Below are positions 15,208 through 53,428 of a stretch of 64,000 bases of DNA, piece by piece. The notes beneath the pieces are model-generated. The model ran no database searches. It was not told the origin of the DNA and saw only the letters and a list, made by a program, of their open reading frames with translations. Source of the DNA: Bacteroidia bacterium (lineage in GTDB: Bacteria > Bacteroidota > Bacteroidia > NS11-12g > UBA9320). Position 1 is the stretch's first letter; each line of letters opens with the position of its first letter. Position numbers and translations under genes: made by a program. The stretch spans positions 1,665-65,664 of the forward strand of contig JAFMCI010000004.1 in NCBI GenBank assembly GCA_017857855.1, in the 5' to 3' direction.

Positions 15208-16071
15208 ATGAACAAGATCCTTTTCTTTTTTATCCTCTTAGCAACTACTAAGTTATGCCTAGCTCAAGACCTAGATTTGTTAGATGAACCAGAATTAGAA
15301 ACTATCGATTATACTACGGCCACATTTAAAACCAATAGAGTGGTAAACGGGCATAGCATCGAAACCGTAGCTAAAAATGAATTCGATTTTAAAATATCGC
15401 ATCGATTTGGTTTTTTGAGCGGAGGGCCTTATGATATGTTCGGACTTGATCAAGCCACTATGCGTATAGGTGGAGACTATGGAATAACCGATAACTTAAA
15501 CGTAGGACTAGGTAGAAGTACGGTGGACAAAACCTATGATGGTTTTGTAAAATATAAATTCCTGAAACAAAGTACTGGACTTAAAACAATGCCCGTAACT
15601 GCTACTTGGATAAGCCATATGGGCATAACTACCTTAAAATGGCCGCAACCGGATCGTCAAAACTACTTTTCTAGCAGATTACATTATACGCACCAGCTAC
15701 TCATTGCACGAAAATTTACGGAAGGATTAAGCGTACAATTAAGTCCTACACTAGTACATAAAAATATTGTCGATTCCACTAAATTTAAGAATGACATATT
15801 ATCTTTAGGAGTGGGAGTTAGGCAAAAGCTTACCTCCAGGACCACACTAAACCTAGAGTATTATTACGTAATACCCAATCAATTGGAGGAAGATAAAACC
15901 AATGTGCTATCAGTAGGTTTTGACATAGAAACGGGTGGACACGTTTTTCAGCTGTTTTTTACAAACTCAAGCGGTCCCTTTGAAAAAGCATTTATTACCG
16001 ATACCAAAGCTAAATGGCTTGATGGAGATATTCGTTTCGGATTTAATATTGCAAGAGTATTTAATTTTTAG
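15208..16071 (+). CDS. Putative outer-membrane beta-barrel protein (DUF5777-like)
   Basis: Signal peptide ending LAQ, alternating-hydrophobic strands throughout and a C-terminal aromatic residue (..ARVFNF). The motif ATFKTNRVVNGHSIE...HRFG resembles DUF5777 as I remember it. Confidence 0.5.
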   Translation: MNKILFFFILLATTKLCLAQDLDLLDEPELETIDYTTATFKTNRVVNGHSIETVAKNEFDFKISHRFGFLSGGPYDMFGLDQATMRIGGDYGITDNLNVGLGRSTVDKTYDGFVKYKFLKQSTGLKTMPVTATWISHMGITTLKWPQPDRQNYFSSRLHYTHQLLIARKFTEGLSVQLSPTLVHKNIVDSTKFKNDILSLGVGVRQKLTSRTTLNLEYYYVIPNQLEEDKTNVLSVGFDIETGGHVFQLFFTNSSGPFEKAFITDTKAKWLDGDIRFGFNIARVFNF

Positions 16072-16155: not shown

Positions 16156-18630
16156 TTGCTGTCAACCATATTCGTTGAAGCTACTCATATAGTTGGAGGC
16201 GAGATATATTACCAGTTATTAAATGCAACTACCAATTCGTACAGAGTAACAGTCAATGTGTATTTTGATTGCTACAACGGGGATCCTGACGCAATAGATT
16301 CTGATAAAACTATTTTCATCAGTACATGGGACGCAAAAACCAATAACTTTATTTCCGATTTTACCTTAAGAGGATCTGCCCCTAATCGACTTAAAAGCAC
16401 AAACTACGAATGTGTAAAACAGCCAAGTGGCGTATGCACGGATGCTTATGTTTACACGGCTGTTCGAACTATTAATCCAGGGACCAATGGCGTAATTCTA
16501 GCATGGCAACGGTGCTGCAGAAATAACACCATCGACAATATTGTTAGCCCTGAGGCATCTGGATTTACGGCATGGACTGTTATACCACCTAAATCTACCG
16601 CCAATTCCAGTGCATATTTTACAACAGTACCTCCTGTATATATTTGCGTAGACGCTCCGCTTACGCTTCAGCAACCAGCTATCGATCCAGATGGAGATTC
16701 ATTGGTTTATCTTCTCACAACTCCTTATTTAGGAGCCAATCAAAACAGCCCGCGACCTAGTTCTGCTGGTGCATATGACAGACCCCCTTTCTCTGAATTA
16801 AATTGGAGCGCTAGTTATTCTGAGTTTATGCAAATGAAGGGAAGCCCTTCTCTCAACATGAATTCATCTACAGGAGAGATAACAATTACGCCTTCTGAAA
16901 CAGGTCAATTTGTAGTTGGATTTACGGTGCAAGAATACAGAAACGGAAAGCTGATTGGGGAAACCCGCCGCGACTACCAATTTAATGTAATACAATGTGA
17001 ATTTGATATCCTGGCTAATTTTGATATGCCCAACGGTACAACTGTAGGTGGTGCTTATACCTTTGAATGCGGAGATACTGTTTGCATTCGAAATAAAAGT
17101 TATACTAAATTCCCCGCTAAAACTAAATACTTTTGGGACTTTGGTGATCCAACAACTACAAGTGATACCCTTACTACGTTTAGCTTAGCAGGCAATATAT
17201 GCTATACCTACCCGGGAAATGGGAATTACACAATAAGTTTAAAAGCCACTACGTCTATTTGTGAATCCAATTACAAATATGACGTGCGAATACGTTCTAC
17301 CAAGTCATTTGACTTAGGTCCTGACCTCATTTTTTGTGACGACTTTTCAATTAGATTAGATACTAAAACCGCTGACGCAGTCTCTGTAAAGTGGAATACC
17401 GGCCAAACTGGATATCGTATTAACGTAAGTGATACCGGAAGATATGTCGCAACTGTTTCTTATGGAAATTGCAGTTACGTAGATTCTGTTCAATTACGCT
17501 ATGACAAAGTCCCTCCTGTGTCTCTCCCCAGAGATTCACTTCTGTGTGACACCGTTAATGTGACACTAGATGTGGGCGTACCTGGACTTTTTTATCAATG
17601 GAGCACTAGCCCTCTAGACAACAAGCAAACGATAAATGTTCGAGATACTGGCGAATACTCTGTTATTGTACGAAATGCAAACTGTTTTTCGTATGATACC
17701 ATTAGAATTTGGACTGCGACGATACCAGACATCGATGACCAGTTTTATTGCAACGAATTTACGTTTGAAGCTGAGGCTACTTCCATAGAAGAAGCAGAGT
17801 ACAAATGGTCTACTGGTGAAACCACCCAAAAAGTAACACTAACTCAGGCTGATAATTACTGGGTTCAAGTCAAACAAAGGTATTGTGTTAAAACGGATTC
17901 CTTTAAGATAACAAATCCAATCATTAATCTCGATTTGGGAATAGACAGGCATTTTTGTGATAACATTAATCTGGAGCTTGATGCAGGACCTGACGGAATA
18001 AAATACGATTGGAGTAATGGAGCTACTACACAAAAAATAAAGGTGAATGTGCCCGATACATTCAGAGTAACGGTGTATGATGAATATGGATGCAAGGCAG
18101 CTGATTCTGTGATAATAACTGTATCACAATCACCAGAAGTTGACTTAGGTGACGACCTCACTATCTGCGTAAATAGCCCAACCAAAATTGAAGGACCCGC
18201 AGGATATGCGTATCAATGGAATACCGGATCTAAAGACCAGAGCATCACCACTATGGCCCAAGGCAAGTATACACTCAAAATAATAGATCAATTTGGATGT
18301 ATGGCTATGGACAGTTTGTTTATCACCGTAGATCCTGAAGCGCTACCCAACGAACTTAATGTGCCTAGCGCCTTTAGTCCTAATGATGATGGGCTTAATG
18401 AATTATTCCCGTTTGCCCTCCCAGTTTCTCAACCTTCTTATTACATTACCATCTTTTCTAGGTGGGGAGAAAAAGTTTTCGATTCACGAGACGATAGTAC
18501 TAAACCCAATTGGGATGGTTATTATCAAGGAGAAAAAGTTCCAAATCAATTGTACATCTATTTTATGTACTACCGAGGTTGTGATGGTAACGCTCGTACA
18601 GCAAAAGGCAACGTATATCCGCTACGTTAA
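16156..18630 (+). CDS. Cell-surface protein with a T9SS type B (gliding-associated, CHU_C) C-terminal domain
   Basis: N-terminal THIVGGEIYY module, one PKD-like unit (YFWDFGDP...GNYTISL), five tandem Cys modules and a C-terminal AFSPNDDGLNELF...IFSRWGEKVF...NWDGYY...type B CTD. The start is uncertain (see findings). Confidence 0.85.
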   Translation: MLSTIFVEATHIVGGEIYYQLLNATTNSYRVTVNVYFDCYNGDPDAIDSDKTIFISTWDAKTNNFISDFTLRGSAPNRLKSTNYECVKQPSGVCTDAYVYTAVRTINPGTNGVILAWQRCCRNNTIDNIVSPEASGFTAWTVIPPKSTANSSAYFTTVPPVYICVDAPLTLQQPAIDPDGDSLVYLLTTPYLGANQNSPRPSSAGAYDRPPFSELNWSASYSEFMQMKGSPSLNMNSSTGEITITPSETGQFVVGFTVQEYRNGKLIGETRRDYQFNVIQCEFDILANFDMPNGTTVGGAYTFECGDTVCIRNKSYTKFPAKTKYFWDFGDPTTTSDTLTTFSLAGNICYTYPGNGNYTISLKATTSICESNYKYDVRIRSTKSFDLGPDLIFCDDFSIRLDTKTADAVSVKWNTGQTGYRINVSDTGRYVATVSYGNCSYVDSVQLRYDKVPPVSLPRDSLLCDTVNVTLDVGVPGLFYQWSTSPLDNKQTINVRDTGEYSVIVRNANCFSYDTIRIWTATIPDIDDQFYCNEFTFEAEATSIEEAEYKWSTGETTQKVTLTQADNYWVQVKQRYCVKTDSFKITNPIINLDLGIDRHFCDNINLELDAGPDGIKYDWSNGATTQKIKVNVPDTFRVTVYDEYGCKAADSVIITVSQSPEVDLGDDLTICVNSPTKIEGPAGYAYQWNTGSKDQSITTMAQGKYTLKIIDQFGCMAMDSLFITVDPEALPNELNVPSAFSPNDDGLNELFPFALPVSQPSYYITIFSRWGEKVFDSRDDSTKPNWDGYYQGEKVPNQLYIYFMYYRGCDGNARTAKGNVYPLR
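17308..18330 (+). repeat. Five tandem ~65-70-aa Cys-containing beta-sandwich-like modules inside the 824-aa protein
   Basis: The recurrent pattern (D)LG.D...C.......LD.G.....Y.WS.G.T.Q.I.V...G.Y.V.V....C...D(S)..I is seen five times between aa 385 and 725. The repeats are recognisable at the protein level only. Confidence 0.7.
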
Positions 18631-23830: not shown

Positions 23831-24295
23831 ATGCAAGTTACAGAGGCCATATCGATATTCGAAAAAGTAGTTAAAGAACACTTAAACCTTACGCCAGAGC
23901 AAATTCGTTGTGAGAACGACGGCGAATACCTAATACAAAGAGGAGATGAAACGGAGCTATACGTGGATATATGGCAACCTACCGAAACTACGCAATGGCA
24001 GTACTTTGACCGACAAAAGATTGCGGGTATTTTTCAAATTGTTGCACCTATATGCGAATATCCTGCCGATGAGCATTTAGCAATGTTTATGGAAGAATTG
24101 GCACACCTTAATTTTCATCTTTTTTCAGCATCCTTTATTGCTAATTCAGAACAACGCGTAGTAAGCATTCAATTTAAACGGGTTCTTGAAGGCCTAAACG
24201 AAACTGAAGTTATAGAACCATTAGAAGCAGTAGGTTACTATGCAGAGAACCTGAAAGAATACCTTTCAGAAAAGTATCACGTAAAAAAAATCTAA
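23831..24295 (+). CDS. Hypothetical cytoplasmic protein, possibly YbjN / secretion-chaperone-like fold
   Basis: 154 aa, acidic, with no signal peptide. There is a loose resemblance to YbjN-type proteins (LAMFMEELAHLNFHLFSASF...VVSIQFKRVLEGL). The family call is weak. Confidence 0.35.
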   Translation: MQVTEAISIFEKVVKEHLNLTPEQIRCENDGEYLIQRGDETELYVDIWQPTETTQWQYFDRQKIAGIFQIVAPICEYPADEHLAMFMEELAHLNFHLFSASFIANSEQRVVSIQFKRVLEGLNETEVIEPLEAVGYYAENLKEYLSEKYHVKKI

Positions 24296-24346
24296 CCCTC
24301 GGGCAACCTCCCTGTATCTGAGTACATCTAAAGCACATCCAGCGCA

Positions 24347-24889
24347 ATGAGCCCTAGTGAATCACACGATGAAATATCTTTGATTAAAGCTTGCAGCAAT
24401 GGAGACCATAACGCTTTTAAAAAAATTTACGATATACACTCAGGAACCATGTACAGCATTTGCTTACGATATATGACCAACGAAGACGAAGCCAAAGATG
24501 CTTTGCAAGAAGGCTTTATCAAGGTTTTTAATAGCATAGGCAAGTTTCAATTTACGGGTAGTTTTGAAGGTTGGATGAAGCGTATTTTTGTAAATACGAG
24601 CATAGAACAAATTCGCAAACGTAAGTTACACTTTGATGTCTCTGAACTAAATACCAATGAGCTCCCGCTTACTTCCCGAATAGAAACTGGCAAGTTAGAC
24701 GCAGAAAAAATGATGCGCTTAGTGCAACAATTACCTTTGGGCTACCGCACGGTTTTTAACATGTTTGTAATTGATGGATATAGCCACAAAGAAATAAGCG
24801 ACTATTTAAATATTAATGAGAATACTTCAAAATCTCAATTATTTAAAGCACGCAAGCAGTTACAAATTTGGTTAAAGGACTGGTTTTAA
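24347..24889 (+). CDS. ECF-type RNA polymerase sigma-70 factor
   Basis: 180 aa with region 2 (DEAKDALQEGFIKVF, FEGWMKRIFVNTSIEQIRKR) and region 4 (LPLGYRTVFNMFVIDGYSHKEISDYLNINENTSKSQLFKARKQL). Confidence 0.9.
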   Translation: MSPSESHDEISLIKACSNGDHNAFKKIYDIHSGTMYSICLRYMTNEDEAKDALQEGFIKVFNSIGKFQFTGSFEGWMKRIFVNTSIEQIRKRKLHFDVSELNTNELPLTSRIETGKLDAEKMMRLVQQLPLGYRTVFNMFVIDGYSHKEISDYLNINENTSKSQLFKARKQLQIWLKDWF

Positions 24890-24892
24890 ACA

Positions 24893-26122
24893 ATGCCGAA
24901 ATTCAACGACATATCTGATTTTGAAAATTTGCTCAAAGAGCAAATGTCAGGTCATAGTGCACCACCGCCAGTTGATGCTTGGACGGCTATTTCATCATCT
25001 ACAGCTCAAGCGGGAGGAATAATTAGTTCGCTATCAACCTATTTTAATGCTAGTGTAACACTTGTAAAAACTGGATTAATCATAGTTAGCATTGGAACTA
25101 TTAGCACCGTGGGCTATTTCCAAACTATTAATTCATTCGAAATTCCTCAAACAAAAGAGGAGAATACCCTTAGCCTACCGGAGTCTATTACAACGGATTC
25201 ACAGTCTACTTTTGTAACAATAGAATTAGCCGATAATACGATAAAGTCACCTAACGAAAACAGAACTAGTCGACGTGTAGATTCTAAAAAAACAAATCCT
25301 TCTAGGTCCGCGAGCGTTCCTCTCACCGTTGACACTTCATCTTCAACGCCTCAAAACTACACGAATCAACCCATCAAAACCTTAGAGAATAAAAGCAGTA
25401 CCCCACCCAGAATCACTGCGTCTAACTATAACCCATGTGTTGGAGAAACAGTGGTACTTAAAGCATCAGAAAAGGGCGATTGGTTTTTAAACGAAACTAA
25501 AGTGGCAAGCAACACAGCGGCATATAATGCCCAATGTCGAGATATAGGCACTTATACTTATTACTTTAAAACGGCAGAGATAACTACACGCACTTCATTG
25601 ACCGTTACTGAATTTAATGGGCAAATTATAAAAACTCAAGCGGAAAATGGACACTATTCATTTAGCTTAAGCAATCAAAATCTTATTGCAAACTGGTTTA
25701 TCAATAACAAGTTATATAGCACCAATGCTCCGTTCATCAATGTAACCTTAGAAACGGTCGGTAAACATCAGATTAAAGCAGTGGTAATTAATCATCCTTG
25801 TTCCAAAACCTTGACTTTTGACGTTCAATTAGCACCCATTGGTCACTTTGAAGCCATAAATATTTTCACGGTCGGAAACGATGGTTTGAATGACACGTAC
25901 AAAGTGAATATTTCGGGTTACGACAATTTTTCCATACAGATTTTTAACAGCAATTCTAATCTAGTATTCAGCACTTTAGATCCTGAAGAAGGTTGGGATG
26001 GAAGAATAAATAATATAGGAATAGAATGTCCTCAGGGTGAATATTTTGCCAGAGTTAGCTATAAGCTAAAAGGCGAATTACCTCAAATAAAAAATATAAA
26101 ATTAACACTATTACGTCCATAA
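24893..26122 (+). CDS. Anti-sigma-like single-pass membrane protein carrying a T9SS type B C-terminal domain
   Basis: It starts 4 nt after the sigma stop. It has a ~55-aa N-terminal segment, one hydrophobic span (VTLVKTGLIIVSIGTISTVGYF), an S/T/P/N-rich linker, Ig-like segments and a final ~90 aa (INIFTVGNDGLNDTYKV...IQIFNSNSNLVFS...GWDGRINN..CPQGEYFARVSY) that fits the type B CTD pattern. The anti-sigma role is inferred from position only. Confidence 0.6.
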   Translation: MPKFNDISDFENLLKEQMSGHSAPPPVDAWTAISSSTAQAGGIISSLSTYFNASVTLVKTGLIIVSIGTISTVGYFQTINSFEIPQTKEENTLSLPESITTDSQSTFVTIELADNTIKSPNENRTSRRVDSKKTNPSRSASVPLTVDTSSSTPQNYTNQPIKTLENKSSTPPRITASNYNPCVGETVVLKASEKGDWFLNETKVASNTAAYNAQCRDIGTYTYYFKTAEITTRTSLTVTEFNGQIIKTQAENGHYSFSLSNQNLIANWFINNKLYSTNAPFINVTLETVGKHQIKAVVINHPCSKTLTFDVQLAPIGHFEAINIFTVGNDGLNDTYKVNISGYDNFSIQIFNSNSNLVFSTLDPEEGWDGRINNIGIECPQGEYFARVSYKLKGELPQIKNIKLTLLRP

Positions 26123-26201
26123 TTTGAAAATTAACATGAACCTCATTAAATTTACCAACTTTTTGGATTTTAAAAACAAGAATAACAAACCGAATAAACG
26201 T

Positions 26202-29200
26202 ATGAATAAATCATTCAATTCAGCTAGCCTAACCAGGTATTTAGCGTCATTTGTGTTACTGGTGACAAGCTTCTTGGCTTACTCACAGTGTAACCCTAAG
26301 GTAATGTACAATGGAAATTGGTCCTCAACAGGGGTGTTTTGTTTAGGAGAAATTCTAAGTTTTGACGCTAACTCACCAGGTTACAACAGTAGCACTGTTT
26401 GGGATTTTGGTGATGCCGGACCTGGTACAAGTACGCAAGAAAAACCATCTTACAGCTACGCTACAGCAGGAACTTACACTGTAAAATATACGGGTACGGG
26501 AGGAGCAGGTACGTGCACAGGCACCGTTACGGTGATTGTAAGGCCTTCACCTGAGATACACGTTCGCCAGCTCGCAAATGATACGCAGTGTTACTCTGGC
26601 AACAGCTTCTGCTTTAGAGATTCGATTGTAGCGCCAGACGGCTCTATTGAGCGACTTGTAATGCTATTTAGTGACGGTACGAAAGTGGATACCACTTTTG
26701 CTGGAGGAGCTGGAAAACTAAAAATATTTGATTTTTGTGTAACTATAAACGATCCTGACGGCGGTTTCTTTGACATGGTCGTTGAAGCATATGACACCAG
26801 TGGATGTTTAACTAAATACACTTTTCAGGATTATATATATGTTCATCCTAAGTTAGGCATTAAGTTTGACAATATTACGCCAAAGCCTAATCCAGGTTGC
26901 GACTCCACACTCGGAGTCTTCCTTAACACATCACTTATAGCATTAGCAGATATCGATTCCTTTGTGTGGGATTTTGGGGATGGCACTATTCAAAAAGGTT
27001 CATCCACGGTGAATACGCAATGGTGGTTTGGCATTGACGGGAAAGACACGATAAAACACATGTACACTACCAACGGCACCTTTAATGGAACATTGTATGT
27101 TTCTGCCTATGGATGTAGTGAGACCTTTACTTGGAAAAATGCAGTTACCAACTTTGTGGTAGATCCAAAAATAGTATCTACACCCAATCCTGCTTGTGTC
27201 TCCGATAATCCCATCGAGTTTTCGGTTACCAATTTCAACACCGCAGGTATGTCTTCATTCTTGTGGAACTTTGGTGATCCTCCGTCTGGACCTGCCAATT
27301 TTGATAAAGATAATTTTAGCCCAACAGCTCACGGCTACGGACCTGGACCTTGGATGATTAGTTTACGTATTCAACAAGGCCCTTGTGATGTTACTATCTA
27401 TGACACTATTCAAGTAATAGGACCCATCTCAACCATTGGAGTTCCTTTTGATCAAGTTGCCTATAACCAAACCTATCAGTGTTTGATTACAGACTCTGTT
27501 CAAATGGTAAATAACTCCAGTTATTATCAAAATGATTACAATCAATTGGATGAAGATTCTATCGTTTTTTATTTTGATTATAGTTTTGATTATAACTTTG
27601 ACAACACCACTGGACTTACTAAATTCATAGTAAGAAAATGGAAAGAAGATAAAAACGGCAATAAAATATTGTCGGCAGACACTTTCCCAAAAACTGATAC
27701 GCTGTCTGTCATAGGGTATAAAGCCTACTTTGATACAGCTAAAGACTCCATCGCCGTAATAAACGGTACAGATACCGTTTGGCAAAAATACTATTACAAT
27801 GCCACAAGCTACAGAGGTGGTATAAACGGCCGAAAGCGTTATGCATTCAATTACATTCCACCAGTTGGAGGAAAAGGAGTGGGTACTGGTGATCAAACTG
27901 CCATTGATCCAAACTTAAATGTTAGAGACTATAATCCTAATGTTTGGAGAGTATGGTTTATGGATGATAGATATGCACCACAATGTACGACCGATAGCAG
28001 ACCATGGGTTAATAGAAATGTTGGGATTAATTGTAATTGGAGCATCGATAGTGTGCCAATACACTGGTATACGCCATGGGATGATGTTTACAGAACTTTT
28101 AATAATGGACAGAACTATAGAAGACCTAAGGTTGATAAGCGTTTGTTCAAAGAAGATACGATCTGTTATGAAGTAAATGTTTATTCTGACTCATTCATGG
28201 TTGTACCAAGGTTTATCTATATAAACATTCCAGCAGATTCTGCTTTTACCTACTTTATGCCTTATGACGGATTAAATCCTGCTGTAAACGGATACAGAGA
28301 TACTTTAGTAATTACCGCATCAACGCTTGGAAGAACTATACATTACATGGATAGCTCTCACTTGAGTGTTTTTCAACAAGAAACGTATATCGTAATTAAT
28401 AGACCTCCAAGTAGATTTATCGGAACTGAGTTTTACTATGATGCTGCTGTAGATTCTTTTTATGCAGTAAATAATTTAACCGATACCACCGTACTTGCTG
28501 CCGATCCATTAGGACGATGGAATAAAACTGCTGGCAACGGAACTACCAGATGGTCTACCACCACTAGCGAAATGAGTTTCTACGTTCCGGATGGTGTAAC
28601 CATCACCACTATAAATCTTCCAGCACCGGGTGGTGGAGGTGGAGTGCCTACTCCAGGCCCTTCGTACACCGGACCTAAGACCATTATTTTACCTGCAAAT
28701 ACGCAATTTACATTGCAATCTAAAGATTCATTGTTTAGTGCAGTGCATATACAAACAGTGGCTAGAACCACCACAAATGCGCTTCCATCCTCATATCCAT
28801 ACAAAGATATGTTTGGTAAAACTAGATTTGGTTCAGCCATTTTTGTTGATTCTGCACTGCATAGAGAAGATTGGTTTGATAATAATGCAGTTTGTTTTAA
28901 TGTAGTTTTATGGCAAAAAGACACTATTCATCCGCTTCTGTGTGAGTCTCAAGCGACTAAATCATTAGCGCTCGTTCCACCAAATGCAAAAGGATTAGAA
29001 TGGGTAGATGGTACACCATGTCCATTTACAGGTAACTTCCAATACATATTAGGTTTTGATATGGCAAATACTAAACCAGGTTGTACCCAATCGTGGTTTG
29101 CTGTAAACTATGATACCGTACAATTACCGACTAATCAAACTGGCTCTTGGGCGGTATTTAATGGTGGTGGGGTATTAGCTCCAAGTAGACCAGGTAGTGC

Positions 29201-32183
29201 ATTGCCATTCCAATTACCTTACGCAATTGTAGGAAACACAGGAACACAATTCCTTAAAGGTTACACTCCTGGTCAGATAGGTTCTGGTCAACGTACACCT
29301 GCAGGTTCGTTTACCGTAGGTTTAATAGTAGGTAACGGTGTGCCCCAAGCAAATGGATTACCTGCTTGTTTAGATACTGCTTACTATCCTGATATGTTCA
29401 GAATTCTGTATATGAATCCTGCATTTACTTTATTAAACAGCTCACCACACATGTGTGCAGGAGCTACTGCTTATTTCCAACTAGAAGATCCTATACAAGA
29501 TAGTATTACAGCACTTAGATGGAACTGGGGTTATCCAGGTAACGTAGGCCGTGGACCTCAACAAGGTGGTTATTCTGAAGAGTTTTATTACTACAAAGAA
29601 TATAATGGCCCTCAAGCTAATAGAAATGACGCCAATATCGCTTATAATGGTGAAAAATGGTTGTATAATTTTATCGTAAGGTACAATATAGATGACCTTT
29701 CGGGTACTAAACTGATCGATACTATTGTGGTAAATATTATCAAGAAGTGGGAGGTAGTTGCTTCTAAAAAGCAAGTTAGTAAGGAAGTAATTGACCTTTT
29801 CCTACGTGAAAATTTAGTTTATCAAGACATACCTGCCGCCGATATCCCATTCTACTTAGGTGATGGTTCTAATAATTGTGTTGATACCACAAGTTTTGGT
29901 TCATTCTTCCAATTTGGAATAAAAGCATACCATCAAAACTCTGATCCTGATGTATGGCAAGTTGGAGATAAACGTTACTTATGTAAAACCTATAACCCTG
30001 CTATAGTATCTGATACTACTTTCTTCGTGAATGGTTCGGGCAATAGGGTTCCTTCTTTAAAATATGCAGGTGTAGATTCGTTCACAACCATACAAGATGT
30101 TACAAATCGTAATAAGGCTAATTGTACAAGTTCAGAAGAAGTAACTCAAATACTTCACTTTAGAGATTCTTCTCTAAGAGGTTATGATACCTATGAAAGA
30201 GATATTGATAATGATGGCGTGATAGATGAAGTTATAACCGGTGTTTATAAGCATACCTACAGATATCCTGTGGTACGTGCAATTGACCCTTGCGATCCTT
30301 CGGTAAAAGATACCATTTGGGTGAATGCAAACGCGCCAATGACGCCTAACTTTAGATTAAACAACACAACTGGTTGTAGCGGATTTGGAGCGATATCTAT
30401 GAACGTTGGTTTCTACAACGACTTCTGGATGGATTCAACGGCTATTTGCCAAGGATTAACCTTATTTGTGGAAGATTCTATCAGATACTACCAGTTAGGT
30501 GAGCAAGATCCTCCTACCTACCCAATACACGATTTTGCACTATGGCAAGATCCTGCTAGATTTATTCCTAACATTGAAACCGTTTATTATGATTGGGACA
30601 GTACAGACGGTGTTTGGGATAATTACCAGTCTATAGTACCCAATCATTTCTATCCAGAACCAGGAAAATACACCATCACTATTATACCTAAAGATAGTAC
30701 AGGATGTAGAGATACCTCATACATCGATGTAACCATATCAAAGGTTAATCCTGTGATTTCATTTGCCACATCTTTAGTAAATTGTGCTTCTATTGTTGAC
30801 TTCAAGGATTCTACTTGGTACGTAGATCCGTGCGACACCTTATGTCCTAACGGCAATAATGTTTCGTGTGAGAAATTACTGACATGGAATTGGGATTTTG
30901 GAGATGATACCAGAAACAGTAAGCTTCAAAATCCTTCACACAACTTTACATCAGCAGGGACCTTTGATATTACCCTTACAGTTACTTCTCTGCTAGGTTG
31001 TGAAGAAACCATTACCAGAACTATCTATATACCTGGACCACAGCCTGATTTTGAATTTGACTTGGACGACTTTAATTTGAATGATACCGCTACTATATGT
31101 GTTGGTGATTCGCTACTACTAGTCAACAAAAGTAAAGGAGACATCACAACACCTAAATTCATAATGGACTGGGGAGATAAGACTTTTTCTCAACCAACCA
31201 ATACTACTGGGAAATTCGGACACACCTACAATAAGGCTGGAACCTATTTACTATTCTTAACTCAAGAAGACGAGATACCAGGTACATCTAGCAGATGTCA
31301 AAGAATGTTCCCCGATACGAATCCTGATATTCAAAATCAACGACGAATAGTTGTAATAGTAAAACCACTTCCAGATGTTAAAATTACTGCATCAAAGGAT
31401 ACTATCTGTTTAGGAGACGAGATTACCTTTAATGGGACGCTTGATCCAAGATACACCCGAGTAAAATGGGATATGGCACAATTAGATACTATAAATGGAA
31501 TTGTTCCTCAGGATACAATAGTTAAATATATCTTTAAACAACCTGGAACATTTACGGTAGTATTAAGACCCGAGTATGATTTATTACCTCGTTGTTGGGC
31601 AACGGATTCCGTAGATGTATTTGTACAATCGGTAACTGCAGCATTTGATATTATTCCTGATGGAGCTCCAGAATTCTGCTTTACGAATACTTCCACTACC
31701 AGTCCTTCTGGTAATGTCTTGACGTATGAATGGACGTTTGAAGATGAGACTCCTCCCGGACCAGGAAGTAGCACGGATACAGATCCTTGTTACAATTGGA
31801 ACGAGCACGTAGGTATTTATGAGGTATGTCTTATCGCTACTGATGTATTAGGATGTAAAGACACCGTATGCCAAGATATCGAAAATGTATTCCAAACGAA
31901 ACTTGTTCCTTACAACGTGTTTACACCTAACTCAGACGCTCAAGGGCTAAACGAAGAATTTGTAATTGAAGGTGAAAGCTTACAAGAATATCAAATTAAA
32001 ATCTTCAATCGTTGGGGCGAGCTAGTTTTTGAATCTACAGATGTGAAGTATTCTTGGAACGGAAAAGTTAAAAATAGCGGTAACGATTGCCCTGAAGGAA
32101 CATACTTCTATGTAATTAAATACATGTTTGAATTTGATGATAAATCAGAAACAATAGAAGGTACCGTTGACATTATCAGATAA
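26202..32183 (+). CDS. Giant (about 1990-2019 aa) PKD-domain adhesin-like protein with a T9SS type B C-terminal domain
   Basis: Signal peptide from ATG 26202 (MNKSFNSASLTRYLASFVLLVTSFLAYSQ). At least six PKD-like signatures are present (WDFGDAGPG...GTYTVKY, WDFGDGT..., WNFGDPP..., WNWDFGDDT...GTFDITLTV, MDWGDKT...GTYLLFL, YEWTFEDET...). The C-terminus FTPNSDAQGLNEEFVI...IFNRWGELVFES...WNGK...CPEGTYFYVIKY is a type B CTD. Confidence 0.85.
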   Translation: MNKSFNSASLTRYLASFVLLVTSFLAYSQCNPKVMYNGNWSSTGVFCLGEILSFDANSPGYNSSTVWDFGDAGPGTSTQEKPSYSYATAGTYTVKYTGTGGAGTCTGTVTVIVRPSPEIHVRQLANDTQCYSGNSFCFRDSIVAPDGSIERLVMLFSDGTKVDTTFAGGAGKLKIFDFCVTINDPDGGFFDMVVEAYDTSGCLTKYTFQDYIYVHPKLGIKFDNITPKPNPGCDSTLGVFLNTSLIALADIDSFVWDFGDGTIQKGSSTVNTQWWFGIDGKDTIKHMYTTNGTFNGTLYVSAYGCSETFTWKNAVTNFVVDPKIVSTPNPACVSDNPIEFSVTNFNTAGMSSFLWNFGDPPSGPANFDKDNFSPTAHGYGPGPWMISLRIQQGPCDVTIYDTIQVIGPISTIGVPFDQVAYNQTYQCLITDSVQMVNNSSYYQNDYNQLDEDSIVFYFDYSFDYNFDNTTGLTKFIVRKWKEDKNGNKILSADTFPKTDTLSVIGYKAYFDTAKDSIAVINGTDTVWQKYYYNATSYRGGINGRKRYAFNYIPPVGGKGVGTGDQTAIDPNLNVRDYNPNVWRVWFMDDRYAPQCTTDSRPWVNRNVGINCNWSIDSVPIHWYTPWDDVYRTFNNGQNYRRPKVDKRLFKEDTICYEVNVYSDSFMVVPRFIYINIPADSAFTYFMPYDGLNPAVNGYRDTLVITASTLGRTIHYMDSSHLSVFQQETYIVINRPPSRFIGTEFYYDAAVDSFYAVNNLTDTTVLAADPLGRWNKTAGNGTTRWSTTTSEMSFYVPDGVTITTINLPAPGGGGGVPTPGPSYTGPKTIILPANTQFTLQSKDSLFSAVHIQTVARTTTNALPSSYPYKDMFGKTRFGSAIFVDSALHREDWFDNNAVCFNVVLWQKDTIHPLLCESQATKSLALVPPNAKGLEWVDGTPCPFTGNFQYILGFDMANTKPGCTQSWFAVNYDTVQLPTNQTGSWAVFNGGGVLAPSRPGSALPFQLPYAIVGNTGTQFLKGYTPGQIGSGQRTPAGSFTVGLIVGNGVPQANGLPACLDTAYYPDMFRILYMNPAFTLLNSSPHMCAGATAYFQLEDPIQDSITALRWNWGYPGNVGRGPQQGGYSEEFYYYKEYNGPQANRNDANIAYNGEKWLYNFIVRYNIDDLSGTKLIDTIVVNIIKKWEVVASKKQVSKEVIDLFLRENLVYQDIPAADIPFYLGDGSNNCVDTTSFGSFFQFGIKAYHQNSDPDVWQVGDKRYLCKTYNPAIVSDTTFFVNGSGNRVPSLKYAGVDSFTTIQDVTNRNKANCTSSEEVTQILHFRDSSLRGYDTYERDIDNDGVIDEVITGVYKHTYRYPVVRAIDPCDPSVKDTIWVNANAPMTPNFRLNNTTGCSGFGAISMNVGFYNDFWMDSTAICQGLTLFVEDSIRYYQLGEQDPPTYPIHDFALWQDPARFIPNIETVYYDWDSTDGVWDNYQSIVPNHFYPEPGKYTITIIPKDSTGCRDTSYIDVTISKVNPVISFATSLVNCASIVDFKDSTWYVDPCDTLCPNGNNVSCEKLLTWNWDFGDDTRNSKLQNPSHNFTSAGTFDITLTVTSLLGCEETITRTIYIPGPQPDFEFDLDDFNLNDTATICVGDSLLLVNKSKGDITTPKFIMDWGDKTFSQPTNTTGKFGHTYNKAGTYLLFLTQEDEIPGTSSRCQRMFPDTNPDIQNQRRIVVIVKPLPDVKITASKDTICLGDEITFNGTLDPRYTRVKWDMAQLDTINGIVPQDTIVKYIFKQPGTFTVVLRPEYDLLPRCWATDSVDVFVQSVTAAFDIIPDGAPEFCFTNTSTTSPSGNVLTYEWTFEDETPPGPGSSTDTDPCYNWNEHVGIYEVCLIATDVLGCKDTVCQDIENVFQTKLVPYNVFTPNSDAQGLNEEFVIEGESLQEYQIKIFNRWGELVFESTDVKYSWNGKVKNSGNDCPEGTYFYVIKYMFEFDDKSETIEGTVDIIR

Positions 32184-32211: not shown

Positions 32212-32247
32212 GCCGCCTTGATGATTAATCATTAAGGCGGTTTTTTT
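32212..32247 (+). terminator. Strong intrinsic terminator after the giant adhesin gene
   Basis: CCGCCTTGATGATTAATCATTAAGGCGG is a near-perfect palindrome (stem of about 11 bp) followed by TTTTTTT. Confidence 0.85.
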
Positions 32248-32261
32248 ATGTTTAAAAAAAA

Positions 32262-39464: not shown

Positions 39465-40589
39465 CTAGCCTAGATTCAACTTACGCTTTCCCGAAGTGAA
39501 ATGCCATCTTAGGTAGTTTTCCATGGTAACATCCAACTTGTTGGGGTGTACATTGTAGTTAAATCCTAGTCGGTTTAAAAACACCAAGTGTTTCCCAATA
39601 GTTACTTCATAGCCCACTCTCGCTCCTATCATCTTGCGGTAATTATGAATTACAGGATAACTTTTATTGCCAACCGAATGATATAGCTGCTCTCCCCACG
39701 GTGCTTGAAACTGGTAACTATCCCAATAGTTAAGGACAAACTGATATTCTTTATGGGTTAATCTAAGTACTCCTAACTGACCTACCCCGTCTATAATCCC
39801 ATGTACTTTGTCATTGCTTCTGTCTTCATAAAAAGCAGCATGACCGGCTACAAATAAGTTTGTATGTTCATTGAAAAAGTGCGTGTATTCCAGTCCATAG
39901 GCGAAATTATATTCTACAGAATTTGGGGTGCTATTTACGTCTATTTCACCTGCGCTGTGCACTGTCATTCCTTGTGCGTTTAAGCTTAATTTATTTTTTG
40001 CATTATGTATAGGATTAAGATAAACGTTATACCCCGCCACAAAACGCTCATTTTTTGTGTCTTTGTCGTATATCATATCGTGCCAATCTATCCAAGCGTC
40101 ATACGTTAGTACTTTACCTGGTTTGGTGATTTGTAATCCTTGTTCAAAACGGTCTGTTATCACTTTCTCATAATCATACAGCGGCTCTATCATTTTGTGC
40201 TGCAAGGTTCCGTTCAAACTACCGAAAATGATGTTGTGTTTTAGCACCCCTTCATACGTAAATTTAAAATAAGGCTCAATGCTTTTAATGTCTGGATTAC
40301 CAAAATCATATCGCATGTTAAAACCTCCGTAAATTTGAGCTTTTTCATTAAATGAATATTGGATATACGGCAATATTTGAACCCCAATGTAAGTAGACCC
40401 TTTATCTATTCGCGAAAGATACTCCGCATTGCGGAAGTAGCTCATTTGGTCTACATGCACCAACATGTGTGAAGAATCAATGCTATGTTCGTACTTGTCA
40501 TTATCAAAAAATGAATTTTCATATTGACCGAAGACATTGATGCACAATATCAGACCGACCAGAACACCTGAGAATTTATTAAATAGCAT
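39465..40589 (-). CDS. Hypothetical outer-membrane beta-barrel-like protein
   Basis: Signal peptide (LILCINVFGQ), abundant alternating aromatic/polar strands and many Tyr/Asn/Gly turns. No family recognised. Confidence 0.45.
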   Translation of the reverse strand: MLFNKFSGVLVGLILCINVFGQYENSFFDNDKYEHSIDSSHMLVHVDQMSYFRNAEYLSRIDKGSTYIGVQILPYIQYSFNEKAQIYGGFNMRYDFGNPDIKSIEPYFKFTYEGVLKHNIIFGSLNGTLQHKMIEPLYDYEKVITDRFEQGLQITKPGKVLTYDAWIDWHDMIYDKDTKNERFVAGYNVYLNPIHNAKNKLSLNAQGMTVHSAGEIDVNSTPNSVEYNFAYGLEYTHFFNEHTNLFVAGHAAFYEDRSNDKVHGIIDGVGQLGVLRLTHKEYQFVLNYWDSYQFQAPWGEQLYHSVGNKSYPVIHNYRKMIGARVGYEVTIGKHLVFLNRLGFNYNVHPNKLDVTMENYLRWHFTSGKRKLNLG

Positions 40590-52936: not shown

Positions 52937-53428
52937 TTAGCTGCTTTCTAACGATTTTACTCTTTTAAACGCCCAAGATTTTTCAAAAGGAACTTGCCAT
53001 CTTGTACGTAATTCCGAAAGCACTCCCAGCGTATTATCCAGAAACGTAGAATTAGCATGAATAATACCCACACGAAATGCTTGTGTTAGCTCCGGAAGCT
53101 GCACTAAGCGAATCTTATCGTCTTCTAAAAAGGTGAGATTCATTCTGTTAAAAAGATCCAAGTTCATTTCGTTATCAATTTGTCTGAATATAGCAGAAGT
53201 CTGATCTATGCTGCACCCCGATGCTGCTTCTATCTCCTCATCTACCCCTAATACCAAGAGTTGGTTGTAAAAAATAGCAAATTCGGCTGTAAGTTGATTA
53301 CCATGAGCTGCCCAGTTTTTGCAAAAAACAGAAAGTCTTTCTTCTATGATTGATGATTCTGCTAATGTCAGAGATCTATTGGCTACATAAATCCATATTC
53401 GTCCATTTCCGGTAAGTGTTGGGAACAT
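52937..53428 (-). CDS. Conserved hypothetical cytoplasmic protein
   Basis: 163-aa ORF with good coding character, 12 nt upstream of tsaB on the same strand. No motif recognised. Confidence 0.5.
   Translation of the reverse strand: MFPTLTGNGRIWIYVANRSLTLAESSIIEERLSVFCKNWAAHGNQLTAEFAIFYNQLLVLGVDEEIEAASGCSIDQTSAIFRQIDNEMNLDLFNRMNLTFLEDDKIRLVQLPELTQAFRVGIIHANSTFLDNTLGVLSELRTRWQVPFEKSWAFKRVKSLESS

What the first reader, a model, noticed from the sequence alone, without database searches (positions are those of the whole stretch)
24893..26122. Anti-sigma-like membrane protein that ends in a T9SS type B sorting domain: possible secretion-coupled sigma-factor switch
The gene starts 4 nt after the ECF sigma stop (24889 to 24893), the classic anti-sigma position. 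The protein has a ~55-aa N-terminal segment that is too long and too polar to be a signal-peptide n-region, and a single hydrophobic span (VTLVKTGLIIVSIGTISTVGYF). An S/T/P/N-rich linker and Ig-like segments follow. Its last ~90 aa (INIFTVGNDGLNDTYKV...IQIFNSNSNLVFS...GWDGRINN..CPQGEYFARVSY) follow the same template as the type B CTDs of the 824-aa and 2019-aa proteins in this window (FTPN.DG.NE.F...IFNRWGE.VF...W.G...CP.GTY.Y). A T9SS export tag on the periplasmic end of a sigma-tethering protein is an arrangement I do not know to be described. By analogy with FlgM/sigma-28, where the anti-sigma is exported by the flagellar apparatus, T9SS engagement could extract or cleave this protein. That would free the sigma factor to drive the giant type B adhesin gene immediately downstream.
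Basis: partly seen in the sequence, partly recalled or inferred. Interest (0 to 1): 0.72.

Follow-up and report, generated by a model that had tools for sequence, protein, structure and literature searches.

The report
Anti-sigma-like protein with T9SS tail
A membrane protein encoded right after an ECF sigma factor ends in the same kind of type IX secretion tag as the giant adhesin gene that follows it; this three-gene unit recurs across many Bacteroidota and probably ties adhesin production to the state of the secretion machine, though no experiment has tested that.

Summary
ORF 24893-26122 (409 aa) starts 3 nt after the ECF sigma stop. It has a conserved two-helix N-terminal module, one hydrophobic span (aa 55-76), a ~100-aa unconserved linker, two Ig-like domains and a C-terminal CHU_C/type B CTD (Pfam 47.4 bits, cut-off 27; TIGR04131 32.4, just under 35).

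The arrangement recurs. In 16 of 16 loci examined, nine of them outside the window's syntenic clade, a related ECF sigma lies directly upstream. All 44 full-length proteins sharing the N-module end in a type B-like CTD. 11 of 13 informative loci have a large PKD cargo gene directly downstream.

A conserved ECF-type promoter (GGCAACC-N13-GTACATCTA, 24302-24330) and a strong terminator (32212-32251) bracket sigma, candidate and the 2019-aa adhesin as one operon.

The sigma-linked CTDs consistently lack the Trp of the canonical RWG motif.

No paper describing this architecture was found.

Verdict: a real, conserved, undescribed family of putative anti-sigma factors whose periplasmic end is a T9SS type B CTD. 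The secretion-coupled switch is plausible but inferred.

The parts
24302..24330 (+). ECF-type promoter GGCAACC-N13-GTACATCTA, about 17 nt upstream of the sigma ATG
   Evidence: Identical motif and spacing, with an unconserved spacer, in all 7 clade loci. It is the only exact hit in the window and occurs once in each orthologous locus. The same geometry, [GT]GCAAC[CT]-N13-nnn[CA][GAT]TCT[AT], lies upstream of the sigma in 8 distant loci, and it is the top PWM hit in each locus.
24347..24889 (+). ECF sigma factor, 180 aa
   Evidence: Pfam Sigma70_r2 (49 bits) and Sigma70_r4_2 (58.9 bits); TIGR02937 sigma70-ECF 80.3 bits against a cut-off of 42.9; no specific equivalog reached. It is 80-87% identical across clade loci in which the candidate is 35-39% identical.
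24893..25012 (+). Candidate aa 1-40: conserved cytoplasmic N-module (two short amphipathic helices around a Pro-rich turn; M.KF.DISEFENLLK..L.GHS.P.P.DVW)
   Evidence: One of the two most conserved parts of the protein: 55% mean identity against 8% for the linker. AlphaFold predicts helices 7-19 and 27-37 at low pLDDT. No Pfam, NCBIfam or PDB match. The profile finds the module only in proteins of this architecture.
25055..25120 (+). Candidate aa 55-76: single transmembrane span (signal anchor, N-in)
   Evidence: Kyte-Doolittle 1.75 in the window protein. In 63 family members the span starts at aa 41-61, median KD is 2.13, the N-flank net charge is +1.27 and the C-flank -1.33. AlphaFold did not model it as a helix.
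25121..25420 (+). Candidate aa 77-176: disordered S/T/P/N-rich periplasmic linker
   Evidence: pLDDT below 50 and 8% identity among orthologs, but the length is kept. Across the family there are never fewer than 136 residues between the TM and the CTD.
25421..25846 (+). Candidate aa 177-318: two Ig/PKD-like beta-sandwich domains
   Evidence: pLDDT above 90; Foldseek hits to Ig/FnIII tandems. The domains are optional in the family: members have from none (P0052, P0078, L009, L029) to PKD-positive ones (L005, L030, L063).
25847..26122 (+). Candidate aa 319-409 plus stop: divergent T9SS type B CTD (CHU_C) lacking the RWG tryptophan
   Evidence: Pfam CHU_C 47.4 bits above GA 27; TIGR04131 32.4 below 35. 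56% identity among orthologs. xWG is present in 0 of 41 family CTDs but in 74 of 86 non-sigma-linked CHU_C ORFs.
26124..32183 (+). Giant type B cargo (PKD repeats + CHU_C; 2019 aa from TTG 26124; classical signal peptide from ATG 26202)
   Evidence: Pfam PKD_4 x7 and CHU_C 71 bits; TIGR04131 40 bits, above the cut-off. A large PKD cargo gene lies directly downstream of the candidate homolog in 11 of 13 informative loci.
32212..32251 (+). Intrinsic terminator (13-bp stem, 6 GC pairs, T7 tail) closing the operon
   Evidence: It is the only + strand terminator-like site between 23700 and 32600.
23831..24295 (+). 154-aa cytoplasmic protein with its own TAnnTTTG-type promoter; possible accessory of the module (uncertain)
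   Evidence: A homolog lies directly upstream of the sigma in 11 of 16 loci, including the distant L091 (36% identity, E = 2e-36) and L089. Weak, convergent hints of a T3SS-chaperone/YbjN fold.

Best explanation
The 409-aa protein is the cognate membrane-anchored regulator, most likely the anti-sigma factor, of the ECF sigma encoded 3 nt upstream. Its ~40-aa cytoplasmic N-module would hold the sigma. A single TM helix anchors it N-in. A long disordered linker (plus Ig-like spacers) carries a divergent T9SS type B C-terminal domain across the periplasm. Sigma, anti-sigma and the 2019-aa type B adhesin form one autoregulated operon, running from the ECF-type promoter at 24302 to the terminator at 32212.

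Proposed mechanism (inferred): the CTD is the sensory input. When the type B branch of the T9SS (a PorP/SprF-type shuttle at the SprA translocon) is present and unoccupied, it captures the anti-sigma's CTD. The tethered protein cannot be released, so the linker is cleaved or the protein is pulled out and degraded. That frees the sigma, which then boosts its own operon, including the adhesin. Newly made adhesin carries a canonical CTD and out-competes the anti-sigma for the same shuttle, so fresh anti-sigma re-silences the sigma. The circuit would match production of a very large cargo to free secretion capacity.

Shown here: gene order, domain anatomy, conservation of the module, the promoter and terminator, and the topology signals. 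Inferred: sigma binding, T9SS engagement, and the direction of the switch.
For: (1) Position and coupling. An ECF sigma lies directly upstream (3-nt gap to 23-nt overlap) in 16 of 16 loci. Nine of these (L005, L006, L009, L029, L030, L063, L089-L091) lie outside the window's syntenic clade; where their flanks were examined they differ from the window's.
(2) Anti-sigma-like anatomy. The N-module is conserved and the sigma is 80-87% conserved, while the rest of the candidate drifts. There is one TM at a fixed position with positive-inside charge bias in 63 members and no signal-peptidase site.
(3) The two ends are the constrained parts: N-module 55%, CTD 56%, linker 8% identity.
(4) The N-module and the CTD always travel together. 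All 44 full-length hits of an exhaustive HMMER search with the N-module profile end in a type B-like tail, whether or not Ig domains are present. All six distant sigma-linked proteins pass the Pfam CHU_C threshold.
(5) Reach. At least 136 residues always separate the TM from the CTD, and members without Ig domains have longer linkers.
(6) Operon. A conserved ECF-type promoter sits upstream of the sigma in 15 loci, none sits before the cargo gene, and there is a single terminator after the cargo. A large PKD/type B cargo gene lies directly downstream in 11 of 13 informative loci.
(7) The organism has a T9SS with type A and type B cargo.
(8) Literature. Type B CTDs stay attached to PorP/SprF-type shuttles (PMC9143113). 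Orphan type B cargo shares an orphan shuttle, so competition is possible (PMC12618676). SprF is disulfide-bonded to a moving GldK track, so a captured CTD is coupled to an energised machine (PMC12635249). A CTD protein already signals T9SS status to an ECF sigma in P. gingivalis (PMC7712824).
Against: There is no direct evidence of sigma binding. The N-module matches no known anti-sigma domain: Pfam, NCBIfam and PDB gave nothing, and only 2 of 17 members hit NF052375 'anti-sigma factor' at E ~0.02. Complex prediction could not be run.

The window protein's CTD is below the TIGR04131 cut-off, and 6 of the 10 family members scanned are also below it. The whole family lacks the RWG tryptophan. 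In SprB all five conserved CTD motifs are needed for secretion (PMC12618676), so this CTD may not be export-competent.

Known T9SS substrates have cleavable Sec signal peptides; a tethered substrate would jam the translocon unless it is cleaved. No PorP/SprF gene is in the window. The candidate's CTD is no more similar to its own cargo's CTD than to other loci's cargo CTDs. AlphaFold did not model the TM as a helix. Nearly all the data come from uncultured organisms, and synteny within the window's clade is partly inherited.
Confidence: 0.5

Rival explanations
1. It is the anti-sigma factor (or sigma regulator) of the adjacent ECF sigma, but the CHU_C-like domain is only a periplasmic beta-sandwich sensor that has lost secretion function. 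It would bind something other than the T9SS export pathway, for example unsecreted cargo CTDs piling up in the periplasm, a shuttle protein on its periplasmic face, or a cell-envelope ligand, and it would signal by conventional regulated proteolysis. This makes it an envelope-stress or backlog sensor rather than a secretion-coupled switch.
For: The RWG tryptophan is missing throughout the family (0 of 41, against 74 of 86 ordinary CHU_C tails). TIGR04131 scores are mostly under the cut-off. Every conserved type B motif is required for SprB secretion (PMC12618676). All known T9SS substrates have a cleavable signal peptide (PMC9143113, PMC12618676). All the anatomical and operon evidence fits this reading equally well.
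Against: The other type B hallmarks (FTP..DG.ND, GW.G, G.Y, terminal hydrophobic strand) are kept, and the domain is as conserved as the N-module. The TM-CTD distance never falls below 136 residues, as if the outer membrane had to be reached. The domain is always strictly C-terminal, as a sorting signal must be.
Confidence: 0.27
2. It is not a sigma regulator. It would be an ordinary small T9SS type B surface protein (a mini-adhesin or accessory of the giant adhesin) that is merely co-transcribed with the sigma. The N-terminal region would be an unusual extended signal sequence or membrane anchor.
For: Public databases annotate it only as 'gliding motility-associated' or 'hypothetical'. There is no match to any anti-sigma family. 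The giant cargo in the same clade also has an odd conserved N-terminal extension.
Against: The hydrophobic span starts at aa 41-61, and no signal-peptidase motif follows it in the window protein or its aligned orthologs. The polar 40-aa N-module is one of the two most conserved parts of the protein, which would be unexplained for a leader peptide. Sigma adjacency is 16 of 16 for this architecture, whereas none of the ~86 other CHU_C ORFs in the sampled loci has a sigma gene directly upstream. Only two of those loci (L071, L026) carry an unrelated sigma gene further upstream of a CHU_C ORF, and in L071 a gene on the opposite strand fills the gap.
Confidence: 0.1
3. It is a positive partner rather than an inhibitor: a membrane tether that recruits or activates the sigma at T9SS sites, for example so that the giant cargo is transcribed, translated and inserted next to the machine. 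It might act together with the 154-aa chaperone-like protein.
For: The same conserved pairing and topology apply. A possibly T3SS-chaperone/YbjN-like protein is encoded directly upstream in 11 of 16 loci. The N-module is unlike known inhibitory anti-sigma domains.
Against: No precedent was tested here. In most ECF systems the co-transcribed single-pass membrane protein is an inhibitor (general knowledge; PMC7712824 discussion). The chaperone assignment rests on sub-threshold hits.
Confidence: 0.08

Closest known systems
FlgM / sigma-28 (FliA) flagellar checkpoint
   Same: The logic is the same: an anti-sigma factor carries an export signal for the very apparatus whose late cargo the sigma controls, so a working secretion machine would relieve inhibition.
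   Different: FlgM is a small soluble protein exported whole from the cytoplasm by the flagellar T3SS, and its sigma is sigma-28, not an ECF sigma. Here the protein is inner-membrane anchored, the signal is a folded periplasmic T9SS type B CTD acting at the outer membrane, and there is no sequence relationship (no FlgM family hit). Release would need cleavage or extraction.
PorA - PorXY - SigP signalling in Porphyromonas gingivalis (PMC7712824)
   Same: A CTD-bearing protein associated with the T9SS reports on the system to an ECF sigma factor.
   Different: PorA is a fully secreted surface protein that acts through a two-component system (PorY/PorX) binding SigP, and it controls T9SS component genes. 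Here the CTD sits on the putative anti-sigma itself, giving a one-protein path, and the regulated gene is a cargo gene.
Membrane-anchored ECF anti-sigma factors inactivated by regulated proteolysis (RseA/sigma-E, RsiW/sigma-W)
   Same: Co-transcribed directly after the sigma gene; single-pass, N-in; cytoplasmic sigma-binding end and periplasmic sensing end; autoregulated ECF promoter.
   Different: There is no recognisable class I/ZAS anti-sigma domain (no HxxxCxxC; no Pfam or NCBIfam hit). The cytoplasmic module is only ~40 aa, closer in size to short class II domains such as CnrY (my recollection, not tested). The periplasmic domain is a secretion sorting domain.
FecR/FecI-type cell-surface signalling, including Bacteroidota SusC-like transducer / anti-sigma / ECF sigma systems
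   Same: A trans-envelope relay in which an inner-membrane sigma regulator reaches across the periplasm to an outer-membrane machine and controls genes for that machine's substrate.
   Different: There is no FecR domain. The presumed outer-membrane partner is the T9SS translocon or shuttle, not a TonB-dependent transducer.
RsgI/SigI anti-sigma factors of cellulosome-producing clostridia (from my own knowledge, not checked here)
   Same: The anti-sigma's extracytoplasmic end is a module borrowed from the very class of secreted proteins that the sigma controls.
   Different: RsgI modules bind extracellular polysaccharide. They are in Firmicutes, with no outer membrane and no secretion-signal role.
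Canonical T9SS type B cargo such as SprB, PG1035 and Fjoh_3952 (PMC9143113, PMC12618676)
   Same: A C-terminal CHU_C/TIGR04131-type domain with the FTP..DG.ND, W.G, G.Y and terminal-strand motifs, preceded by PKD/Ig-like domains.
   Different: It has a signal anchor plus a conserved cytoplasmic module instead of a cleavable signal peptide. It lacks the RWG tryptophan, has no adjacent PorP/SprF gene, and is always paired with an ECF sigma.

Membership tests
ECF (group 4) sigma-70 factors (the upstream gene) | Regions 2 and 4 only, with no region 3 or 1.1 | tested here: met
   180 aa; Pfam Sigma70_r2 (aa 28-93) and Sigma70_r4_2 (aa 120-172); TIGR02937 80.3 bits against a cut-off of 42.9.
ECF (group 4) sigma-70 factors (the upstream gene) | Autoregulated promoter with an 'AAC' -35 element and a 'CGT/C.TC' -10 element | tested here: met
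   GGCAACC-N13-GTACATCTA is conserved upstream of the sigma in 15 loci with an unconserved spacer. Use of the promoter by this sigma is inferred.
T9SS type B CTD (Pfam CHU_C PF13585 / NCBIfam TIGR04131) | Pfam CHU_C above the gathering threshold, at the extreme C-terminus | tested here: met
   47.4 bits against 27, aa 321-391 of 409. Six distant sigma-linked homologs score 43-66 bits.
T9SS type B CTD (Pfam CHU_C PF13585 / NCBIfam TIGR04131) | TIGR04131 at or above its curated cut-off of 35 bits | tested here: not met
   32.4 bits for the window protein. Among 10 other family members, 4 pass and 6 score 29-34.5. The neighbouring giant cargo passes with 40 bits.
T9SS type B CTD (Pfam CHU_C PF13585 / NCBIfam TIGR04131) | All conserved type B motifs present (five motifs A-E, each needed for SprB secretion; PMC12618676) | tested here: inconclusive
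   FT.G.DG.ND, GWDG, GEY.A..SY and the terminal IKLTLLRP are kept; 'RWG' is replaced. The paper's motif boundaries appear only in a figure, so I could not map RWG to a named motif.
T9SS type B CTD (Pfam CHU_C PF13585 / NCBIfam TIGR04131) | N-terminal cleavable Sec signal peptide | tested here: not met
   The hydrophobic span lies at aa 55-76 after a conserved polar module, and no small-x-small site follows it. No SignalP or DeepTMHMM was available.
T9SS type B CTD (Pfam CHU_C PF13585 / NCBIfam TIGR04131) | Cognate PorP/SprF-like shuttle gene adjacent | tested here: not met
   No PorP_SprF hit among 34 window proteins scanned against Pfam. It would count as an 'orphan' in the sense of PMC12618676.
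T9SS type B CTD (Pfam CHU_C PF13585 / NCBIfam TIGR04131) | T9SS-dependent export | not testable with these tools
   Needs genetics or proteomics.
Membrane-anchored ECF anti-sigma factor | Encoded directly downstream of the sigma and co-transcribed with it | tested here: met
   3-nt gap in the window; a small gap or an overlap in 16 of 16 loci. There is no terminator between the two genes.
Membrane-anchored ECF anti-sigma factor | Single-pass membrane protein with a cytoplasmic N-terminus | tested here: met
   One hydrophobic span, with positive-inside bias (+1.27 against -1.33) over 63 members. The C-terminal domains are of extracytoplasmic types. This rests on hydropathy only.
Membrane-anchored ECF anti-sigma factor | Recognisable anti-sigma domain (class I/ZAS HxxxCxxC, RskA, FecR, etc.) | tested here: not met
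   No Pfam or NCBIfam hit at E <= 1 for the window protein and no PDB hit for the N-module profile. NF052375 'anti-sigma factor' hits only 2 of 17 members, at E ~0.02.
Membrane-anchored ECF anti-sigma factor | Binds and inhibits its sigma | not testable with these tools
FlgM family | Sequence membership in FlgM | tested here: not met
   No FlgM hit in Pfam or NCBIfam. The resemblance is in logic only.

The most novel reading that the evidence does not exclude
A secretion-coupled ECF switch. The T9SS type B pathway physically captures the sorting domain of an inner-membrane-tethered anti-sigma factor across the periplasm, and its extraction or cleavage releases the sigma. This would be the first case of an outer-membrane secretion signal serving as the sensory input of an anti-sigma factor, and a FlgM-like checkpoint that matches giant-adhesin synthesis to free T9SS capacity. 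It appears to be widespread in uncultured Bacteroidota.
Probability: 0.33. Interest if true: 0.85.

Novelty: new variant of a known kind. Interest (0 to 1): 0.72.

Why it matters
How Bacteroidota match the expression of T9SS cargo, often enormous adhesins, to the capacity of the secretion and gliding machinery is largely unknown. The main exception is the PorXY-SigP-PorA pathway of P. gingivalis. This family offers a compact three-gene circuit (sigma, CTD-bearing anti-sigma, cargo) with a defined promoter, which makes the question directly testable.

If the CTD is engaged by the T9SS, this would be a new sensing principle for ECF signalling, with a sorting signal acting as the input domain. 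It would also be a natural probe of how type B CTDs are recognised. The family-wide loss of the RWG tryptophan marks a residue that may separate docking from export.

Practically, these proteins are currently annotated only as 'gliding motility-associated' or 'hypothetical'. The N-module profile plus the CTD would allow them to be re-annotated.

Tried and rejected
No sigma-binding test was therefore possible.

(2) The genome-contig scan with the full-length alignment was swamped by generic CHU_C tails. It proved useful only because six of the 80 loci happened to contain sigma-linked members.

(4) The word-index search with the N-module found only truncated family fragments; the exhaustive HMMER search was needed.

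(5) Tailored mimicry: the candidate's CTD is no closer to its own cargo's CTD than to other loci's cargo CTDs. Rejected.

(6) A separate ECF promoter in front of the giant gene was not found. A second PWM hit at 41861 lies inside an ABC-F ATPase gene and is probably chance.

(7) The NF052375 'anti-sigma factor' similarity appears in only 2 of 17 members at E ~0.02. Inconclusive.

(8) The unrelated ECF sigmas upstream of type B cargo in L071 and L026 do not look linked. In L071 a reverse-strand gene lies between them; the L026 gap was not examined.

(9) The N-module profile found nothing in the PDB.

(10) Foldseek on the full model gave only generic Ig/FnIII matches.

(11) The single-sequence AlphaFold model of the 154-aa neighbour had too low confidence (pLDDT 44) for a fold search.

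(12) Literature searches for anti-sigma combined with T9SS, CTD, CHU_C or sorting domain found no description of this architecture. The ECF reclassification paper's supplement was not available.
Full report
1. OBSERVATION

The ECF sigma gene runs from 24347 to 24889. It carries Pfam Sigma70_r2 and Sigma70_r4_2 and scores 80 bits on TIGR02937 (cut-off 43), but it reaches no specific equivalog. The candidate begins at 24893, 3 nt after the sigma TAA and in the same frame, and encodes 409 aa.

Hydropathy shows one span: the best 19-aa Kyte-Doolittle window is 1.75 at aa 55-73. The preceding 54 residues are polar and net acidic.

An AlphaFold model built on 15 homologs gives:
- two short helices (aa 7-19 and 27-37, low confidence);
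- no confident structure from aa 28 to 168;
- confident beta-sandwiches from about aa 177 to 406 (pLDDT 85-96).

Foldseek sees only generic Ig/FnIII tandems.

The last 90 residues hit Pfam CHU_C at 47.4 bits (threshold 27, E = 2e-12). They hit TIGR04131 at 32.4 bits, just under its cut-off of 35. The downstream 2019-aa protein (PKD x7 + CHU_C) and the 824-aa protein at 16156-18630 are type B cargo, and the window also holds two type A cargo genes. The organism therefore has a T9SS. It is an uncultured marine Bacteroidota with 38% GC.

2. A FAMILY, NOT A ONE-OFF

Eighteen full-length homologs (33-98% identity, 406-422 aa) all carry CHU_C. In the alignment the conserved parts are the first ~40 residues (M.KF.DISEFENLLK..L.GHS.P.P.DVW) and the CTD. 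Mean identity to six orthologs is:
- N-module 55%
- TM region 25%
- linker 8%
- Ig-like domains 35%
- CTD 56%

For comparison, the sigma is 80-87% identical, the giant cargo 47-53%, and dihydroorotase 85-89%.

All orthologous loci share a long synteny that includes housekeeping genes. Within that clade, gene order is therefore partly inherited and is weak evidence on its own.

The decisive result came from outside the clade. A sigma HMM run over 80 unrelated CHU_C loci found six in which a related ECF sigma (143-194 bits) directly precedes a protein with the same plan, usually overlapping its start. The plan is an N-motif (for example IDELFRNGLKDGGITPPPGVWEAVS), one TM, a linker, and a CHU_C domain passing Pfam's threshold at 43-66 bits. 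In L005, for example, the flanks are a DNA polymerase III delta'-like gene upstream and an mnmE-like gene downstream.

An exhaustive HMMER search of 1.84 billion representatives with the N-module profile gave 60 hits. They break down as follows:
- All 44 full-length single-match proteins end in a type B-like tail. Some have no Ig domain at all (P0052, 295 aa; P0078, 310 aa).
- The remainder are truncated fragments or low-complexity noise.

Three of these distant members were looked up, and each sits directly downstream of an ECF sigma. In total, 16 of 16 loci have the sigma. By contrast, none of the ~86 other CHU_C ORFs in the sampled loci has a sigma gene directly upstream. Only two of those loci (L071, L026) carry an unrelated sigma gene further upstream of a CHU_C ORF, and in L071 a gene on the opposite strand fills the gap.

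Directly downstream of the candidate homolog, the 13 informative loci show:
- 11 with a large PKD cargo gene, carrying a type B CTD wherever the sequence is complete;
- one with a type A amidase cargo;
- one with no cargo gene.

3. TOPOLOGY AND GEOMETRY

Across 63 full-length members the single hydrophobic span starts at aa 41-61 (median KD 2.13). The N-flank is net positive (+1.27) and the C-flank net negative (-1.33), which fits N-in/C-out. In the window protein and its aligned orthologs no small-x-small cleavage motif follows the span, and the conserved polar module ahead of it would make no sense as a leader peptide.

The distance from the end of the TM to the start of the CTD is never under 136 residues (median 252). 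Members without Ig domains have 136-156 residues of pure linker. The spacer is free in sequence but kept long enough to cross the periplasm. That last point is my inference.

4. TRANSCRIPTION UNIT

All seven clade loci have GGCAACC-N13-[GT][TC]ACATCTA about 17 nt upstream of the sigma ATG, and the spacer is unconserved. It is the only exact match in the window (24302-24330) and occurs once in each orthologous locus. Eight distant loci show the same geometry, [GT]GCAAC[CT]-N13-nnn[CA][GAT]TCT[AT]. A weight matrix ranks the site first in each locus tested except L063, where the sigma start is uncertain and no such site was found.

This is the classic ECF 'AAC ... CGT/C.TC' architecture; compare the CGT-box ECF promoters driving T9SS genes in F. 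psychrophilum (PMC9723704). No such site precedes the giant gene. The only + strand terminator between 23700 and 32600 is a 13-bp stem with a T7 tail at 32212-32251, just after the giant gene's stop. Sigma, candidate and adhesin are therefore most likely one positively autoregulated operon.

The 154-aa gene upstream has its own housekeeping-type TAnnTTTG box (consensus from PMC9723704).

5. THE CTD IS TYPE B BUT SYSTEMATICALLY ODD

Every giant cargo CTD in these loci reads FNRWGE.VF. Every sigma-linked CTD lacks the tryptophan at that position (window: FNSNSNLVF). The counts are 0 of 41 family CTDs with xWG, against 74 of 86 non-sigma-linked CHU_C ORFs, most of the rest having another aromatic there. 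The family members are related, so the counts are not independent, but the feature holds over deep divergence.

Six of the ten family members scanned fall just under the TIGR04131 cut-off, as does the window protein.

The candidate's CTD is no more similar to its own cargo's CTD than to the cargo CTDs of other loci, so there is no sign of locus-specific mimicry.

6. MECHANISM

The best reading is a cognate membrane-anchored anti-sigma factor whose periplasmic input domain is a type B CTD.

What the literature says about type B CTDs:
- They are not cleaved and stay bound to PorP/SprF-type shuttles (PMC9143113).
- Orphan type B cargo shares one orphan shuttle (PMC12618676). Both type B cargos in this window are orphans, because no PorP/SprF gene is present.
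- SprF is disulfide-bonded to a moving GldK track (PMC12635249).

I therefore propose the following sequence:
- A free shuttle or translocon captures the tethered CTD.
- The protein cannot be released, so it is cleaved in the linker or extracted.
- The sigma is freed and the operon fires.
- The adhesin's canonical CTD then out-competes new anti-sigma for the shuttle, and the anti-sigma re-silences the sigma.

This is FlgM-like logic with a homeostatic twist. Every step after 'the anatomy and operon are as described' is inference.

My rough odds:
- The protein is the sigma's cognate regulator: ~0.8.
- Its CTD interacts with T9SS components: ~0.55.
- Engagement releases the sigma: ~0.33.

The main rival (0.27) is that the RWG-less CTD no longer functions in export and acts as a conventional periplasmic sensor, for example of cargo backlog. 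Minor rivals are an ordinary co-transcribed cargo (0.1) and a positive tether or activator (0.08).

7. COMPARISON WITH KNOWN SYSTEMS

The protein works like a membrane ECF anti-sigma factor (RseA or RsiW type) in position and topology. It fails the membership test for any known anti-sigma domain.

It resembles FlgM/sigma-28 in logic only. The closest T9SS-specific precedent is PorA-PorXY-SigP (PMC7712824), in which a secreted CTD protein signals through a two-component system.

As type B cargo it meets the Pfam and positional criteria. It fails on the signal peptide, the TIGR04131 cut-off and the adjacent shuttle gene.

Five literature searches found no description of an anti-sigma-like protein with a T9SS CTD. 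Public records call these proteins 'gliding motility-associated' or 'hypothetical'.

8. LIMITS

- Sigma binding could not be modelled.
- No SignalP or DeepTMHMM was available.
- AlphaFold did not model the TM span as a helix.
- The motif map of PMC12618676 is only in a figure.
- Nearly all sequences come from metagenomes.
- The survey covers 16 loci plus an exhaustive profile search; it is not a full genome census.

9. VERDICT

I rate it a new variant of a known kind, with interest 0.72.

Noticed in passing
window 23831-24295 (+); homologs at L091:954-1412 and L089:3-281: A 154-aa cytoplasmic protein with no Pfam hit lies directly upstream of the sigma in 11 of 16 loci. It is 76-88% conserved within the clade and 34-36% identical in two distant clades. 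Weak but convergent hints suggest a T3SS-chaperone/YbjN-like fold. The L091 homolog hits Pfam TY-Chap1 (E = 0.017), CesT_Tir_1 (0.04) and YbjN (0.073). The ortholog profile's top PDB hit is 2plg_A (E = 0.45). The predicted secondary-structure order is a-b-b-b-a-b-b-a, from a model with pLDDT 44. It may be a fourth component of the module.
   Followed up: partly
window 26124-26201 (+), upstream of the classical signal peptide that starts at ATG 26202: The giant cargo ORF stays open for ~25 codons upstream of its MNKSF...LAYSQC signal peptide, and a motif x(A/I)KFT(N/T)F(L/S) is conserved there in all 7 clade loci. At DNA level the conserved stretch is TAAATTTAC.A.C.TTTT. This could be an extended signal-peptide region for a 2000-aa cargo, or a conserved non-coding element such as a near-consensus TAnnTTTA promoter box. 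The extension is absent from the giant cargos of L005 and L009.
   Followed up: partly
window 25847-26119 and all family CTDs: The sigma-linked type B CTDs consistently lack the Trp of the 'RWG' motif (0 of 41, against 74 of 86 ordinary CHU_C tails). This may mark a residue that separates docking from export.
   Followed up: yes
window 15208-16071 (+) and 16156-18630 (+): A DUF5777 outer-membrane beta-barrel gene (321 bits) lies directly upstream of the 824-aa type B cargo gene, roughly where a PorP/SprF-like shuttle gene might be expected nearby. No PorP_SprF family hit occurs anywhere in the window.
   Followed up: no
window 41861-41889 (+): A second sequence (GGCAACC-N13-..GCTTCTC) scores the same as the sigma promoter on the weight matrix. 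It lies ~280 nt inside the ABC-F ATPase ORF 41580-43466 and is probably chance.
   Followed up: no
window 59384-60517 (-): A 377-aa ORF gives a sub-threshold PorV-family hit (19.9 bits against GA 27). It may be a distant PorV/FadL-like outer-membrane barrel.
   Followed up: no
window 46377-47834 (-), 50067-52190 (-), 52937-53428 (-), 39465-40589 (-): Four sizeable ORFs have no Pfam hit at E <= 0.001. Two of them flank a type A CTD cargo gene (47834-50047) next to a TonB-dependent receptor gene (43583-46396).
   Followed up: no
L030:9474-12353: In one Bacteroidales locus the gene after the sigma/CTD-anti-sigma pair is a 959-aa Amidase_2 + PKD protein with a type A CTD (Por_Secre_tail) rather than a type B adhesin. 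The module is therefore not strictly tied to type B cargo.
   Followed up: no
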